A stretch of 64,000 nucleotides of DNA from Octopus sinensis (lineage: Eukaryota), in NCBI RefSeq assembly GCF_006345805.1, contig NC_043000.1:115072001-115136000 (forward strand), in the 5' to 3' direction. This document shows positions 1 through 6,000 of the stretch, one piece after another. A program made the position numbers. The stretch's first letter is position 1. Each line of letters begins with the position of its first letter.

Positions 1-3000
1 TTCAAAACTAACTCTGCATCTTTGATACCATGGTTAAAATTACTAATATTTTCCTATCTGGTTTTCTTTTATGTTGTATAGTGCTTTGCAGTTACTTCTT
101 GTGAGTGAATAGGGAACTGCCGAAAGATAATCATTCATATATGGCCAATATCACAGCTGAAGTTGTGATGTTTACAACATCCAAATTTACAACCTGATTA
201 TAAATTTCAGTGATCGTTAGTTGTCTTTCCATGTAAGCTGCTTGTGTTTATGTGTACGTATGTTTGCTTATATATATAGACGTGTGTGTGTGTTCTCTTG
301 AAATTTTATAAATATTGCTGTATATTAATACAGCAATGGCTCAGTGGTTAGAGCGTTGAGCTTATGATCGTGAAGTTGTGAGTTCAAATCCCAGACCGGG
401 CTGCATGTTGTGTTCTTGAGCAAGACACTTTACTCCGCGTTGCTCCAGTTCACTCAGCTGAAGAAATGAGTTGTGACGTCACAGGTGCCAAGCTGTAACG
501 GCCATTTGCCTTTCCCTTGGATAACACTGGTGGCATGGAGAGGGGAGACCGGTATGCATGGGCGACTGCTGGTCTTCCATAAACAACCTTGCCCGGACTT
601 GTGCCTGGGAGAGTAACTGTCTAGGTGCAATCCCACTGTCAATCATGACTGAAGAGGGTCTCAATGTTAATAACATAGCATGTGTATGAATTCTTCTGCA
701 AACTTGTGTGTGTGTGATGTATCCATTCATTTGTGACAGATTGATTTCTGTATTAAACAACTTTTATCTATTTCAGTTGTTGCAGAGGAATTGAAGTCAG
801 ACATGGGACTCTTTATTGAACATACCAACAATATAACAGCTGAACAGGCCAAGAATTTCCGACCGACAACACCTGTGCATAATTTAGGAAACCCTGATGG
901 AAGTCAATCACCAAGACCTCGCTTGACCACTGGAAACGAACTTACTGAGGGAACAGCAATATATCTTGGAAAACATCGCAACTCAATTGCAAGCGCCACA
1001 GATGATGACTTCAGTACAACGGACACTGTCACCTCTAATATATCAATGGGAGAAACGCTTTCACCGAAATCTTTTGAGAATGGGAAAATGCGTAGGCCGA
1101 GTATTTCGTCAGAAGGCAGCTTTACCACAGTTGGTATGTCAGAAGATTACAACATAAATGGCATTCATGACCAGTTGCCAAATGGTGACACACATATTGA
1201 AGAACCACGCATGATACCAGAAATTGTAGAAACTGTTGAAACAGGGGTTCCATATGGCATGGAATCATTCGTTCCCGATATGAATCATGTTGTTGAAAAT
1301 GAGGTGGAAACTCATGAAGTCAATGGAATTGAAGAGGAAATAGTCATGTCAGTTTCTCAGGATAACGCAAGCCGGCCAATGTTGGAAAGTAGTCCCTCGT
1401 TAGAATTAAGTAGGTCTTCAAGTGCTGCTGAATTAGCACAGTACATGAACAGTCCTAAAGAGGAACTGGTGTTGACAAAAGAGGACCGGAAATCTTTGGA
1501 TTATCGTGGCTCCCCAATGATTGAGAATCAGAGGAAACAGGAAGTGAAAGAAGAAAGCAAAAAGTTGTCTCCATCAAATGAGAAGAGGTCTCCAAAGATA
1601 AGGCTGGACGGGTACACTCTGTCAATTGACTCCGAGTCAGATACTATTGATTCCGAATCTACTCAAGACGACAGTATTCCATTAGCTGCTCAAACGAATC
1701 TGAAGAAGCAGATTGAACGCTGGCAGAAACAACTGCAGGAACACCTGAATGATAATAGCGGGTTGTACACAGCACAAGAACAAGAGAAACTGAGAGAGAA
1801 GGTTGACCAGTGGAACAAACAATTGAAAGAACTCAACGTGACAGATTCTTCCGGGTTTAGACTGCTTGAACAGAAAGTTATGAAGCAACAGATAGAACTT
1901 TGGCAAAGGAAGTTGTCTGCAAAAGAACGCCAAAGCGATGGTGCAAAGAAATACAAAGAACAAGAAATCGAATTTTTGAAGAAACAGGTTCAAGTTTGGA
2001 AACAAAAAATTAAAGTCATTGAGAAAACTTCCAGCCTGTACACCATAGAAGAGAGAGAGGTTCTTCAAGAACAGATTGACCTGTGGCAGAACCAGCTTGA
2101 TAAAAAAGGTTGTGACACAGATAGTAGCACCAAAGAACAGAATCTTCTTCGGCACCAGATTGAGGTGTGGAAGAAAAATTTGAAGGATAAGAAATTTGCT
2201 GGACATTCTTTCAGTGCCCAAGAACAAGACATCTTGAGAAGACAACTGATTGTTTGGCAGAAGCAGCTTCATTGGTACAAGGATGGAGATTCTTCTAGTC
2301 AGAGAGAGATCTTGAAAGAACAAGTGAATGTTTGGCACTCGCAACTGCAGGATGTCCAAAGCCACCAAGATAAAGATAGCAAAGTGGAGCAGGATATCTT
2401 AGAACAACAAATTGAATTGTGGCAGAATAAGATGAATGAAAAGAATTCTGGTAGTGAAGCCCTTGTGATGAAACAAATTGACATATGGAAGAAACAAACA
2501 CGAGACAATCAGAACCCTGATAATGGTTTCCTGGTGATAGAACAGCAACTTCTTGAAAGAGAAATTCAGCTCTGGAATAAAAAGCTGAATGGCAATGATA
2601 TTGAATCTGAGACTTTCTTGGCTGAAGAAATGGATGTTCTTTGTGATAAAATTGACCTCTATCAGAAGAAGTTACAGAAAAACAATGAAACTAATTCCAC
2701 AATGGAACCTATTGAACAGGACCTTTTAAAGTTGCAGGTTGATCTTTGGCAGCAGAAGCTAGCAGCCATGCAAGAGAGGAAAGAATCTTTACAGAAATAT
2801 AATGAAGAGCAACAGAATATTCTAAAGTTTCAGATAGAATTGTGGCAAGATAAACTTGCTCACCAAAATATTGATATTAACTTCAGAGGCACAGAGCTGA
2901 AAGGATCAGAGTTGTTAGCTAAAGAGATTGATATTTGGCAGCGGTGGCTTGATGTGAAGAGAGAAAAGAAAGAGACGAGGATAAAATTCAAATTACTTAA

Positions 3001-6000
3001 TGAAGAACTCCAGAAAGATCAAATCCGTCTGTGGCAAGACCATCTTGACATTATCAAGAATAACACATTAGGGTACACTGAGGAAGAACGGGAGATTTTG
3101 ATGCAGCAAATTGAACTTTGGCAGAGGGGTCTTGTAGAGAACAAAGACAAGAAGATAATTCACCTGGCTGCAGAACAGGACATTTTGAAGAAGTATATTG
3201 ATTTGTGGTACACGAAAATGAAACGAAACTCTGACACGTCTATTGGAGAGGAGGAGTCTGATGTGAGAGAACAGATTTCTATTTGGAAAAAACAACTAAA
3301 ACTGTTTAATGTAGAAGAGACTCTTTTACCACATTCTGTTCAGCAGGATATAATTAACCAACAGATTATGGTATGGCAAAAGAAACGAGAAAAGTGCCAG
3401 ACCGAAAAAGACACTGATGAGCTGGGGAAAATTGAGAGTGAAATTCTTCAGCAACAGATAGAACTTTGGCAAAATGACTTGTTAGATTATGAGAAGAGTC
3501 AAAATCAAAATGAAAATGTTCCTCAGAAACAGATAAAATTGTTACAGAGAAAACTCTCTAAAACCGACAAAGACGTCAACCCTGAAATAACTGCTCAGGA
3601 AAACGCAATCGTCAACCGTCAAATTGACTTTTATACCAAAATGAGCAGCCTCGATGAGGGTTACAACGCTGAGTATATCACTGATGAACAAGAGATTCTG
3701 GAAAAACAGATTAATCTTGCACGTCTCAAGTTATCTCAAACTGATGGTAGTTCCTATTATTCAGAAACAGAGTATGACCTTTTGCAGAAACAGGTCAATC
3801 TGTGGCACCGCCAACTGATTGCAATCCAGCATCGTTTGGATATTCGAAAGAAATTAGTTGTACAGGAACAGAACTTGCTGAAAGAACAAATATCTTTGTG
3901 GGAAGCCAAGTTGAAAACTCACCTCGGTCCTAGTTCTCACACTGAAGAACAGAAAGCTATGCAAGAGCAGTTGGAAATATGGCAGCAACAACTTGAAGAC
4001 CACAAGACTTCTATATTAAACAAAGGTTCCAATGTTAAAGAAGACCCTCTTGCAGACAAAATGGCTCAGATGCTAAAAAGCCAAGAGGAGATAATTCAAA
4101 GTTTCCAAGAGGGCTTGAAGCACCTTCCAGAGAACTTGAAAAATCAAGTGAGATCATCGCCATCATCTCCTCAGACAAAGGTACGTTCATCCAAAGGTAT
4201 ATTGCCCCCTCCTCCAGAACTTCCACAAAGACCAATTTCACCCAAAGAGATTAAGCCCCAAATAAAGCCAATTACAAACTTTCCTCCTCCACCAGAGACA
4301 TTCAGTGACAAATCACAGAAGCAGAAAGAAAACTCAAAAACCAAAAGTTCAAGCAATTCAGTACCACCAGTTCCTCCCAAACCAGCGACCCCTCCACCAA
4401 AACTTCCATTTACAGTGAATCTGAAAAAAGTTGGACCACCAAAAGAGAATTCTCCTCCAGTAAAAACAGAGGTGAATTTCTTTCGAAAACAAAATGACAC
4501 AGAAGATAGTGGTGTTGTCCGAGCTGTTCCTGCTATGGTTGTATTGAAGCCACCATCAGTAGCGCCAAAACCAAAACGGAAGTTACCAGAACCAGAACTC
4601 ACACCTCGTGAGCAATTATTAATGGAAATCAAAAATTCAAGCCGAGGTAATTTGAAAGGGGTAAGTTGACAGCCTTGTTACTTTATAGTGTCACTCATAT
4701 AGCAAACCTAGTTTAATACATGTCAACCATGTCATTTTGAAGCCTCACTCAGTCCCATTGTCTCGTAACTTCACTCAATTCCATCTAATAGCCTCACTCA
4801 ACCCCATCATCTTATAACCTCACTCACCCTTGATTCAGTTTCACTCGGTTCATGTCATTTCATGGTCCCACTCCGACTCCCACCATATGATCTCACTCAT
4901 CATTTGTCATCTCGTGACCTCACTTCTTGATATTCCAGATAAATTTTCTTGTTCAAAGAAATGTTTTTACAACGCGGTGTGTTGGCAGAAACGTTAACAC
5001 ACCAGGCAAAAAGCTTAACACTATTTCATCTGTCTTTTCATTCTGAGTTCAAATTCCACCGAGGTAAAACAAGTAAAAGTAAAGATGTTTTTTTTTTCTG
5101 TAAGACTTAGATTTAAGAGATGAGGAATTATGTACATTGTTTACATTTGACAGATATTTGTCCTTATCTTGTTTGTTGTTAATACAGCGTTTCGGCTAAT
5201 ATACCCTCCAGCCTTCTTCAGGTGTCTTGGGAAAATTTCGAATCTGGGTTCTCATTCCTAAGGTATTTTTCGATGTTGTTATTATTATTATTCAGGTCTC
5301 TGCCTGGAATCGAACTCAGAATCTTGGGGTTAGTAGCCCACGCACTTAACCACTACACCATATGCCCTGAATAGTAATAATAATAATAACAACATCAAAA
5401 AATACCTCAGGAATGAGAACCCAGGTTCAAAATTTCCCCAAGACTGGAGGAAGGATGAAGGCTGGAGGGTATATCAGCCGAAACGTTGTGTTAACAACAA
5501 ACAAGATGAGAACAAATATCCGTCAAATGTAAATAATGTTTATAATATTTTGTTGTTAAAATTTATCTGCAATAGATTGGTCATACTTCTACAAATATAC
5601 CATTCCTAATATCTTAATTATAAAAATATACTAGGATTTTTTTAAAGATCAGATGGCTTGGAGAGTCCATCTGTGTAAAATAGGAACCAAAGATTTTAAA
5701 ATGGTGGAGAAATCCTGGTATATCTGTTTGTATGTCGAGTTGTTATTATCAGACATCATTATTGTTGATGGCATCATTATCAGCCATTATTATTTCATGT
5801 TCATGGTTAATCCCTAAGCCATTAATATTGATATTTCTCTCTCTCCTCTTCAAGAACACTGTATATAAAGATGGCAGTTAATCTAAGGTTTGTAATCTTT
5901 CTGTCTCTTGAGCTACTCCAAGTCTCTCCTGCTCTCGTACAGTTGGTCTATAGTTCCTTTTCTTCCTCCTTAGATACTCAAGCTTTTGAAAGAAAGCAAA

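What the first reader, a model, noticed from the sequence alone, without database searches (positions are those of the whole stretch)
1688..4000. Unrecognised ~29-aa tryptophan-anchored repeat, ~27 copies in one exon
Seen: about 770 aa of units like EQDILxQQIELWQxKL separated by short polar linkers. W is kept in ~23 units and replaced in ~4. The DNA units are highly diverged while the frame and motif persist, which points to an old, selected repeat. I cannot assign it to spectrin, HR1, nebulin, IQ or TPR repeats. Inference: a helical-hairpin or solenoid rod, or an array of ligand-binding helices, attached to a Pro-rich/WH2 actin-regulatory tail. It may be a lineage-specific cytoskeletal spacer or scaffold.
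Basis: partly seen in the sequence, partly recalled or inferred. Interest (0 to 1): 0.8.

Follow-up and report, generated by a model that had tools for sequence, protein, structure and literature searches.

The report
Octopus Cobl-like tryptophan helix repeat array
One large exon of the octopus cordon-bleu-like actin-regulator gene encodes 27 conserved copies of a short tryptophan-centred helix that bivalves carry only once, a cephalopod-only expansion whose function is still untested.

Summary
Window 1685-3997 (+) encodes 27 units with a mean period of 29 aa. The anchor is W in 23 units and Y, L, Y or A in 4. All units lie in one exon (777-4660).

The gene is not an orphan. The exon is 100% identical to Octopus sinensis LOC115210393, a cordon-bleu-like (Cobl-like) protein. 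That protein has an N-terminal Cobl domain encoded upstream of the window, and a Pro-rich tail with one WH2-like motif.

The unit matches no Pfam family or solved structure. A unit profile searched against 1.84 billion representative proteins found only cephalopod Cobl-like proteins, each with 27 units.

The helix cores are the most conserved part of the exon: 72% identity against 48% for linkers in the most distant relative. Unit number and spacing are kept almost exactly.

All six bivalve Cobl-like proteins examined carry one such unit, aligned with unit 27. The array is therefore an old amplification of a conserved molluscan helix.

AlphaFold places one helix per unit. It packs six units into an up-down bundle (pLDDT 82, pTM 0.76), but the shape of the whole array is unresolved.

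The most likely role is a folded helical-repeat spacer or scaffold between the membrane-proximal and actin-binding ends. This role is inferred, not shown.

The parts
777..4660 (+). Large coding exon (3884 nt) of the octopus Cobl-like gene. It encodes an acidic, Ser-rich part, the 27-unit array, a conserved helix, the Pro-rich region and most of the WH2-like motif.
   Evidence: Open frame. Acceptor and donor. 100% identical over 1295 aa to O. sinensis LOC115210393 isoform X9 (P0007), 99.8% to O. vulgaris P0013 and 95.9% to O. bimaculoides P0002.
1388..1516 (+). Conserved short segment upstream of the array (SSPSLEL...DYRGSP).
   Evidence: Kept in all cephalopod sequences (consensus). BLASTP gives a weak positional match to the oyster protein, E 0.058, which is not significant. 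Coordinates.
1685..3997 (+). Array of 27 W-anchored helix units. The 18-aa cores start at 1685, 1775, 1865, 1961, 2048, 2132, 2219, 2297, 2384, 2450, 2537, 2624, 2711, 2807, 2900, 2996, 3083, 3170, 3248, 3338, 3431, 3506, 3596, 3683, 3767, 3863 and 3944, each 54 nt long. Consensus: E Q [ED] [IL] L x x Q I [ED] L W Q [KR] [KQ] L.
   Evidence: There are 27 units in each of 13 cephalopod-type proteins.
3944..3997 (+). Unit 27 (EEQKAMQEQLEIWQQQLE), the copy that corresponds to the single W unit of bivalve Cobl-like proteins.
   Evidence: Aligned with the bivalve unit in 6 of 6 bivalve proteins examined. W, Q+1, Q+3 and L+4 are invariant in 10 of 10 rows. Unit 27 is the best-scoring of the 27 units for 6 of 6 bivalve units.
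4043..4126 (+). Conserved second helix after the array (DPLADKMAQMLKSQEEIIQSFQEGLKHL). It is shared with bivalves.
   Evidence: Alignment. Invariant L52, Q55, E71 and L73. Coordinates.
4199..4408 (+). Proline-rich region (PPPPELPQRP, FPPPPE, VPPVPPKPATPPPKLP), followed by an NLKKV motif at 4418-4432.
   Evidence: Read from the translation. Coordinates. That it binds SH3 domains or profilin is an inference from composition only.
4601..4660 (+). WH2-like motif, first part (TPREQLLMEIKNSSRGNLKG). It continues in the next exon.
   Evidence: Aligns with the C-terminal region of the bivalve proteins that UniRef names 'WH2 domain-containing protein'. BLASTP to oyster P0015 gives E 9e-05. Pfam gave no WH2 match.
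10906..10950 (+). Last coding exon (VKLKDTNWSKDSQS, then stop). It completes the LKG|VKLK end of the WH2-like motif.
   Evidence: The tail peptide of P0002 was located in the window. Acceptor AG at 10904-10905 after a pyrimidine tract, and stop at 10948-10950. The two exons were not joined or searched as one.

Best explanation
The region is the central domain of the octopus cordon-bleu-like (Cobl-like) actin regulator.

Each of the 27 units is one amphipathic helix of about 20 residues. Its hydrophobic stripe is L-7, I-3, W0 and L+4, flanked by I/L-8 and L-1. A short polar linker follows, and most linkers contain Gly or Pro.

The array arose before the cephalopod lineages sampled here split. 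It came from tandem amplification of a single helix that molluscan Cobl-like proteins carry just upstream of a second helix, the Pro-rich region and the WH2 motif. Unit 27 is the ancestral copy. All 27 units have since been kept one-to-one.

Most likely mechanism (inferred): consecutive helices pack antiparallel through the W-centred faces. They form a folded up-down helical-repeat rod or a chain of small bundles. This rod would act as a fixed-length spacer or scaffold. It would separate the N-terminal Cobl domain and KRAP-like, proline-rich motifs from the C-terminal Pro-rich/WH2 actin-binding end.

Shown here: the repeat, its selection, its phyletic limits, its origin, and the family of the gene. 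Predicted only: helices and local packing. Inferred only: the spacer/scaffold role.
For: Gene identity
- The exon is 100% identical to O. sinensis LOC115210393.
- The Cobl domain PF09469 scores above its cutoff in full-length relatives: P0002 28.4 bits and P0005 29.4 bits against a cutoff of 25.
- A family profile matches the solved COBLL1 Cobl domain 2daj_A at E 2.2e-06.
- The tail aligns with the bivalve WH2 region.

Selection
- The core is the best-kept class of the exon at three evolutionary depths. Core against linker identity is 97.7 vs 94.0% (O. bimaculoides), 90.9 vs 76.8% (Argonauta hians) and 72.0 vs 48.1% (P0003).
- Only 5 gapped residues fall in the 771 array positions against P0003.
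- Anchor spacing is identical in 21 of 26 intervals in P0003 and in 25 of 26 in Argonauta.

Distribution
- The unit profile found 3 proteins at E<=0.001 among 1,835,955,588 representatives. Two are cephalopod Cobl-like proteins with 27 matched stretches each. The third is a W-free cadherin-like repeat protein judged spurious.
- All 13 cephalopod-type proteins held have 26-27 units of 8 bits or more. None of the 36 other Cobl-like homologues does (1 oyster, 34 insects, 1 ostrich).

Origin.

Structure
- All 27 anchors lie inside predicted helices. There are 24 helices, and 3 of them span two units exactly where the linker lacks Gly and Pro.
- 19 of 26 linkers contain Gly or Pro, against 3 Gly/Pro among 459 core residues.
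- The six-unit fragment folds with mean pLDDT 81.9 and pTM 0.76 as six helices joined by 2-8-residue loops.
- Its nearest solved shapes are up-down six-helix bundles: 8qae_A (TMq 0.48, prob 0.85) and 4o7g_A (TMq 0.49).
Against: - The whole-array model is poor (mean pLDDT 60.5, pTM 0.31), so no overall rod or solenoid is demonstrated.
- The alignments behind both models are shallow (4 rows, and 6 effective rows). AlphaFold is known to bundle amphipathic helices readily, which I state from my own knowledge. A six-unit fragment may close on itself artificially.
- No Foldseek match was significant: 0 at E<=0.001.
- I had no model coordinates, so burial of W was not checked.
- Polar positions are kept as strictly as the hydrophobic ones. 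Q-4 is identical in 27 of 27 units against P0003, K/Q+3 in 24 of 27 and Q+1 in 22 of 27. This suits a binding surface at least as well as a folding core.
- The ancestral state is a single unit, and a single unit cannot be a solenoid.
- No expression, localisation or biochemical data were available.
Confidence: 0.5

Rival explanations
1. Multivalent array of independent ligand-binding helices. Each unit would bind one copy of whatever partner the single ancestral helix binds, for example a calmodulin-like EF-hand protein. The cephalopod protein would then carry about 27 docking sites, like a very long IQ-type lever or a calcium-sensor platform.
For: - Conserved polar positions lie on the same helix face as W (Q-4, Q+1, K/Q+3).
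- W, Q+1, Q+3 and L+4 are invariant from bivalves to cephalopods.
- A lone unit is functional in bivalves.
[quoted passage not shown] That is the same relative place (PMC5748978, passages read).
Against: - The units are not basic. Mean net charge is -1.4 in the N-terminal half and +1.0 in the C-terminal half, and the array totals -18. Classical calmodulin targets are basic, which I state from my own knowledge.
- Pfam gave no IQ match or other motif match.
- The ostrich COBLL1 examined has no W at all. None of the 9 insect and bird homologues inspected shows a unit-like W context. The mouse site is therefore probably not homologous.
- AlphaFold packs the helices on each other with good confidence.
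Confidence: 0.22
2. Actin-filament ruler or tandem actin binder. Each unit of about 29 aa would contact one actin subunit. It could run along the filament as nebulin's 35-aa modules do, or bind monomers as tandem WH2 repeats do, with the true WH2 at the end of the array.
For: - The array is attached to a WH2-like tail in an actin regulator.
- Unit number and spacing are strictly kept, which fits a ruler.
- One helix plus a linker per unit, with a period near that of tandem WH2 arrays and nebulin. The period comparison is from my own knowledge.
Against: - Pfam gave no nebulin or WH2 match at E<=10.
- The unit consensus has neither SDxxYK nor the helix-linker-LKKV layout.
- The array is slightly acidic, as actin is.
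- Spacing varies from 22 to 32 aa between units, which is awkward for a strict one-unit-per-subunit register.
Confidence: 0.1
3. Intermolecular association. The helices would form coiled coils or bundles between molecules, bringing several single-WH2 tails together so that the protein can nucleate actin. A related variant is amphipathic helices that open onto membranes, as apolipophorin-type bundles do.
For: - A heptad-like d-a-d-a stripe, L-7, I-3, W0, L+4.
- Three predicted helices of 52-60 residues.
- A single-WH2 protein is thought unable to nucleate on its own (PMC3849942, main text read).
Against: - Helices are interrupted about every 29 residues, and 19 of 26 linkers contain Gly or Pro. 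This breaks any long coiled coil.
- The six-unit fragment is predicted to satisfy its hydrophobic faces within one chain.
Confidence: 0.1
4. No function: a chance pattern or a neutral low-complexity expansion.
For: Q, E, K and L are abundant. No family match.
Against: - 0 of 200 shuffles produced a unit.
- 27 units are kept one-to-one, with cores at 72% identity while the rest of the exon is at 38-48%.
- Synonymous-site similarity between units is near background, yet the motif is kept.
Confidence: 0.01

Closest known systems
[quoted passage not shown]
   Same: N-terminal Cobl ubiquitin-like domain in the full-length protein. KKRKPAPPPP-type motifs (sequence). A Pro-rich region and a single C-terminal WH2-like motif. 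This matches the architecture described for molluscan homologues in PMC3849942.
   Different: None of the 36 non-cephalopod homologues tested has the array. The cephalopod proteins are about twice as long, 1801-2787 aa against 1039-1421 aa in bivalves. The family literature I read does not mention the W helix.
Single W unit of bivalve Cobl-like proteins (EQMQQQ-f-Q-m-WQtQLEQNQ)
   Same: Same motif, same position upstream of the second helix, the Pro-rich stretch and the WH2. W, Q, Q and L are invariant. The best match is unit 27.
   Different: One copy instead of 27. It scores only -1.6 bits against the cephalopod unit profile, so its homology rests on position and on the alignment of the flanks.
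Spectrin repeat
   Same: Cytoskeletal helical repeat with conserved tryptophans in antiparallel helices (my own knowledge).
   Different: The spectrin unit is about 106 aa with three helices. Here the unit is 29 aa with one helix. No three-unit periodicity appears in unit similarity. No Pfam match.
Nebulin modules and tandem WH2 arrays (Spire, Cobl)
   Same: One short helix plus a linker per unit of about 30-35 aa, in actin-associated proteins (my own knowledge).
   Different: No SDxxYK and no LKKV-type motif in the units. No Pfam match. Acidic rather than basic.
Up-down helical bundles (for example the designed single-chain six-helix barrel 8qae, or cytochrome b561 4o7g)
   Same: Nearest shapes to the six-unit model, TMq 0.48-0.49.
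   Different: Not significant (E 0.5-2), with 10-11% identity. This is a similarity of topology only, not a relationship.
Two-helix alpha-solenoids (TPR, HEAT)
   Same: Tandem antiparallel helices that form elongated scaffolds (my own knowledge).
   Different: Those have two helices per unit of 34-40 aa. Here there is one helix per 29 aa. No Pfam match.

Membership tests
Cordon-bleu family (Cobl-like type) | N-terminal Cobl ubiquitin-like domain (PF09469) | tested here: met
   The domain is not inside the window, because it is encoded upstream. It is present in the full-length proteins that contain this exon: PF09469 is precomputed for P0007 (exon 100% identical). P0002 scores 28.4 bits and P0005 29.4 bits against a cutoff of 25. 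2daj_A matches at E 2.2e-06.
Cordon-bleu family (Cobl-like type) | A single C-terminal WH2 domain | tested here: inconclusive
   Pfam reported no WH2 match for P0001, P0002, P0005, P0015 or P0065, and no WH2 structure was hit. The LLMEI...NLKG|VKLK motif does align with the bivalve C-terminus. For the oyster homologue a WH2 was reported by HMM-HMM comparison at E 0.00025 (PMC3849942).
Cordon-bleu family (Cobl-like type) | Basic, proline-rich KRAP-type motifs near the Cobl domain | tested here: inconclusive
   KKRKPAPPPPP and KPKKSTKSKPAPPPP are visible in P0002. The definition of the motif is recalled, not taken from a call. These motifs lie outside the window.
Spectrin repeat | Unit of about 106 aa with three helices; Pfam spectrin profile | tested here: not met
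   No Pfam match. Period 29 aa with one helix per unit. No offset-3 signal.
Nebulin repeat | Module of about 35 aa with SDxxYK | tested here: not met
   No Pfam match. The position profile of the 27 units has no such motif.
IQ calmodulin-binding motif | IQxxxRGxxxR consensus on a basic helix | tested here: not met
   No Pfam match. The consensus and charge differ.
WH2 (as the repeating unit) | Short amphipathic helix, a linker, then LKKV/T | tested here: not met
   No Pfam match at E<=10. The unit consensus has L-W-Q-K-K-L without the WH2 layout.
TPR / HEAT / HR1 | Two antiparallel helices per unit of 34-40 aa (TPR, HEAT), or an HR1 coiled-coil finger | tested here: not met
   No Pfam match. 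One helix per 29-aa unit.

The most novel reading that the evidence does not exclude
The W helix is a partner-docking site that all molluscan Cobl-like proteins use once, next to the WH2. The partner could be a calcium sensor or actin itself. Cephalopods multiplied it 27-fold and fixed that number. The result would be a giant multivalent platform that couples many copies of the partner to one actin-binding tail. No such architecture is described for any WH2 protein, and it would be a cephalopod-specific change in a factor that drives dendrite branching in mammals.
Probability: 0.15. Interest if true: 0.75.

Novelty: new variant of a known kind. Interest (0 to 1): 0.5.

Why it matters
Cobl-like proteins link calcium signals, membrane-shaping proteins and actin assembly. 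In mammals they are required for dendritic branching (PMC5748978; abstract and passages read). The invertebrate form has no known function (PMC3849942).

This exon shows three things:
- Molluscs have a conserved, so far undescribed helix next to the WH2.
- Cephalopods expanded it into a 770-aa domain of 27 units and then froze it.
- The domain has no relative in Pfam, in the PDB or among 1.84 billion representative proteins.

It is a clean, datable case of domain birth by amplification within one exon of a known actin regulator. It also yields a defined fragment (6 units, 168 aa, confidently modelled) that could be expressed and solved. It is not a new kind of system, and its function remains inferred.

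Tried and rejected
- Tandem Repeats Finder on the DNA gave no unit-period array. The repeat is visible only in protein.
- Pfam on the exon gave one sub-threshold hit, Melibiase_2_C at 16.7 bits against a cutoff of 22.5. I take it as noise.
- PDB sequence searches gave nothing significant. The exon gave 0 hits. The unit profile gave 9 hits at E<=10, the best at 0.04.
- Foldseek against the PDB with both models gave 0 matches at E<=0.001.
- The ESM Atlas gave no usable hit for the whole array or for six units.
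- P0006, the third hit of the unit profile (E 4.9e-05, 9 stretches), was rejected as spurious. It is a W-free protein of near-identical cadherin-like repeats, and its best unit scores 3.7 bits.
- An attempt to build an in-register alignment of paralogous six-unit windows failed. MAFFT aligned overlapping windows by self-identity (A3). In A4 it placed the other windows at their own positions. The second model therefore rests on orthologues only.
- Complex prediction with two copies of the unit-27-plus-second-helix module returned 'no answer' (score 0.02, mark 0.32, alignment not used). This is no evidence either way.
- I looked for a unit-like W context in 9 of the 36 non-molluscan homologues and found none. 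A conserved EKFSQWRDNIL motif in several Hymenoptera was noted but not pursued.
- Literature searches found 0 papers for 'cordon-bleu' with 'cephalopod', 0 for 'cordon-bleu' with 'octopus', and 0 for the two LOC numbers.

Full report
What is there. The + strand holds a stop-free frame at 737..4669 (1310 aa, P0001). The exon proper runs from 777 to 4660. The acceptor AG is at 775-776 behind a pyrimidine tract, and the donor GTAAGT is at 4661-4666. A short last coding exon follows at 10906..10950. It has an acceptor AG at 10904-10905, encodes VKLKDTNWSKDSQS, and ends in a stop. The window contains no N. Every search used the single exon, window sub-stretches or database proteins, so the spliced model as a whole was not searched.

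Checking the observation. A regular expression for the motif found 23 units. An HMM built from them found 27 units between residues 322 and 1087 of P0001. The 18-aa cores lie at window 1685..3997. The anchor residue is W in 23 units and Y, L, Y, A in units 12, 22, 23 and 24. Anchor spacing is 22-32 aa, most often 29, with a mean of 28.96. All 25 tryptophans of the frame lie in the array. None of 200 residue shuffles of the region gave a unit of 10 bits or more, against 23 in the real sequence.

The repeat cannot be seen in the DNA. Tandem Repeats Finder reports only three short rows of period 6-12. Cores are on average 51% identical in DNA and 34% in protein. Third codon positions are 37% identical and positions 1+2 are 57% identical. 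There is no higher-order period: mean unit identity is 0.32-0.39 at every offset from 1 to 13.

Which gene. A homologue search with residues 300-1310 returned three protein clusters among 7998 candidates scored. One was a UniRef 'Cordon-bleu ubiquitin-like domain-containing protein' of Octopus bimaculoides (P0002, 96%). The other two were unnamed sequences at 59% (P0003, P0004). A second search, with the N-terminal 330 residues of P0002, returned 47 proteins among 1952 candidates. They were octopod proteins (O. sinensis LOC115210393, O. bimaculoides LOC106877933, O. vulgaris, Argonauta hians), P0003, one oyster 'cordon-bleu protein-like 1', 34 insect proteins and one ostrich COBLL1.

The exon translation is 100% identical over 1295 aa to O. 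sinensis isoform X9 (P0007). It is 99.8% identical to O. vulgaris, 95.9% to O. bimaculoides, 79.4% to Argonauta and 53.7% to P0003. The Cobl domain PF09469 scores above its cutoff in P0002, P0005, oyster P0015 and Pinctada P0065. A profile of the family matches the solved COBLL1 Cobl domain 2daj_A at E 2.2e-06.

Pfam did not report a WH2 domain in any of these proteins. The C-terminal LLMEI...NLKG|VKLK motif nevertheless aligns with the bivalve C-termini. For the oyster homologue a WH2 was reported by HMM-HMM comparison (PMC3849942, main text read). That paper describes molluscan cordon-bleu homologues as having a Cobl domain and a single WH2, and it does not mention a repeat. The gene is therefore the octopus Cobl-like gene. 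The window holds its last two coding exons, and the Cobl domain is encoded upstream of the window.

No known repeat family fits. Pfam gave only one sub-threshold, irrelevant hit for the exon. PDB sequences gave nothing for the exon and nothing significant for the unit profile (best E 0.04). The ESM Atlas gave no usable hit. Foldseek gave no match at E<=0.001 for either model. Spectrin, nebulin, IQ, WH2, TPR, HEAT and HR1 each fail a defining feature (see the membership table).

Distribution. I aligned the 27 units, taken as 31-aa windows from the window itself (A2; in 3 rows the tool read the first codon as M). I then searched this profile against 1,835,955,588 representative proteins. Three proteins reached E<=0.001. 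Two were P0005 (Argonauta hians, 27 stretches, E 6e-123) and P0004 (27 stretches, E 9e-113). The third was P0006 (E 4.9e-05). P0006 is a W-free protein of near-identical cadherin-like repeats whose best unit scores 3.7 bits, and I reject it. In a local search over all proteins held at that point, the 13 cephalopod-type proteins each had 26-27 units of 8 bits or more. None of the 36 other Cobl-like homologues had any.

Selection. The helix cores are the best-conserved part of the exon at all three depths. The table gives percent identity to the window translation.

| Compared with | Core | Linker | N-terminal part | Tail |
|---|---|---|---|---|
| O. bimaculoides | 97.7 | 94.0 | 94.0 | 96.4 |
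| Argonauta | 90.9 | 76.8 | 68.2 | 77.6 |
| P0003 | 72.0 | 48.1 | 37.7 | 48.0 |

Against P0003, only 5 of 771 array residues are gapped. Anchor spacing is identical in 21 of 26 intervals in P0003 and in 25 of 26 in Argonauta. The same units lack W in all lineages, with two exceptions. Unit 24 is A in the octopods and W in P0003 and P0004. Unit 12 is Y in the octopods and C in P0003 and P0004. The array was therefore complete before these lineages split, and number, order, spacing and motif have all been held since. No orthologous DNA was available, so dN/dS was not computed.

Origin. A search with the C-terminal 181 residues of the oyster protein returned 17 bivalve proteins among 941 candidates. 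I examined 6 of the 17, one per species or genus: Ostrea, Saccostrea, two Crassostrea, Pinctada and Tegillarca. Each has two to four tryptophans. One of them always lies in EQMQQQ-x-Q-x-WQ-x-QLEQNQ, about 110-140 residues before the WH2-like motif. A second conserved helix follows it. This unit aligns with cephalopod unit 27 and the following helix. In a ten-sequence alignment, W, Q+1, Q+3 and L+4 of the unit, plus four positions of the second helix, are invariant. Unit 27 is the best-scoring of the 27 octopus units for 6 of 6 bivalve units.

The bivalve unit scores only -1.6 bits against the cephalopod unit profile. The case for homology therefore rests on position, flanks and invariant residues. 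In 9 of the 36 non-molluscan homologues inspected I found no such W context, and the ostrich protein has no W at all. The simplest history is tandem amplification of the ancestral helix upstream of itself.

Anatomy of a unit. The consensus, numbered from the anchor, is E-11 Q-10 [ED]-9 [IL]-8 L-7 x x Q-4 I-3 [ED]-2 L-1 W0 Q+1 [KR]+2 [KQ]+3 L+4. L-7, I-3, W0 and L+4 form a 4-3-4 stripe. I/L-8 and L-1 form a second stripe beside it. The opposite face carries E/D and K/R at i/i+4 spacing; this geometry is my reading. The N-terminal half is acidic (mean -1.4), the C-terminal half is basic (+1.0), and the array totals -18. Cores hold 3 Gly/Pro among 459 residues, while 19 of 26 linkers contain Gly or Pro.

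Structure prediction. The whole array (772 aa, 4-row alignment) gave mean pLDDT 60.5 and pTM 0.31. It has 24 helices of 14-60 residues. Every anchor lies in a helix. The three long helices join units 13+14, 15+16 and 25+26, whose 15-aa linkers lack Gly and Pro. Units 4-9 (168 aa, six informative rows) gave mean pLDDT 81.9 and pTM 0.76, with six helices joined by 2-8-residue loops. The nearest solved shapes are up-down six-helix bundles at TMq 0.48-0.49, none significant. I had no coordinates, so contacts and burial of W were not inspected. The prediction supports one helix per unit and antiparallel packing of neighbours. It does not establish the overall shape.

Mechanism. I commit to a folded up-down helical-repeat rod, or a chain of small bundles, acting as a spacer or scaffold of fixed length. 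It would lie between the N-terminal Cobl and proline-motif part and the Pro-rich/WH2 tail. I put this at about 0.5. The main rival, at about 0.2, is an array of independent docking helices. It is favoured by the strict conservation of polar residues on the W face and by the existence of a functional single unit in bivalves. It is also favoured by position, because mouse Cobl-like has a required calmodulin site between its Abp1-binding region and its WH2 (PMC5748978, passages read). Against it stand the non-basic charge, the lack of any motif match and the absence of W in the vertebrate protein examined. Actin-ruler and self-association readings are less likely (see the rivals). A homodimer test of the ancestral module gave no verdict and counts for nothing.

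Novelty and limits. Full-text searches found no paper combining cordon-bleu with cephalopod or octopus, and none naming the two LOC identifiers. Subscription journals and supplementary files were not searchable. The gene family is known and the helical-repeat principle is known. The unit, its 27-fold cephalopod array and its single-copy bivalve ancestor appear to be undescribed. These things were not checked: expression, orthologous DNA, named squid or Nautilus genomes, the closed metagenome and viral collections, and the spliced model as one sequence.

Noticed in passing
window 39115-39453 (-) and 50254-50625 (-): Two minus-strand open frames match Pyr_redox_2 (PF07992). The one at 50.2-50.6 kb matches the N-terminal FAD-binding start (30.3 bits, cutoff 26.1). 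The one at 39.1-39.4 kb matches profile positions 205-244 (20.9 bits, below cutoff). They are probably exons of a pyridine nucleotide-disulphide oxidoreductase gene downstream of the Cobl-like gene, on the opposite strand.
   Followed up: partly
window 60288-60614 (-): An open frame matches MutS domain IV (PF05190, 22.5 bits, cutoff 22). It is probably an exon of a MutS-family gene on the minus strand.
   Followed up: partly
window 1388-1516 (+): A short conserved segment (SSPSLELSRSSSAAELAQYMNSPKEELVLTKEDRKSLDYRGSP) lies in the otherwise fast-evolving acidic, Ser-rich part upstream of the array. Its match to the oyster protein (EEFVLTFDDLQNVDFTG) is weak, E 0.058. It may be another conserved linear motif of molluscan Cobl-like proteins.
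   Followed up: partly
window 4418-4432 (+): An NLKKV motif sits directly after the Pro-rich stretch, about 55 residues before the WH2-like motif, and is kept in Argonauta and P0003. It could be a remnant or a second degenerate LKKV element. No amphipathic helix precedes it.
   Followed up: no
P0016-P0047 (Hymenoptera Cobl-like), several hundred residues before the C-terminus: In 4 of the 8 Hymenoptera proteins inspected, a W sits in EKFSQWR[DE]NILK. Hydrophobic residues at -3 and +4 around the W recall the molluscan unit. It is unknown whether the two are related.
   Followed up: no
window 43.1-43.5 kb and 51.2-51.7 kb; also 6.3-7.2 kb: Long (CA/TG)n-type microsatellite stretches produce spurious open frames rich in THTH/CVCV. 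The frame at 38158-38613 (+) ends in a ...PDLTPSDLFFWG... stretch that resembles mariner-type transposase ends, from my own knowledge. Pfam gave no match.
   Followed up: partly
P0005, P0003, P0007-P0012 against P0002: Annotated isoforms differ by extra coding segments between the KKRKPAPPPPP motif and the large exon (GGPQV... onward), and by long N-terminal extensions. The array exon is constant in all of them.
   Followed up: partly
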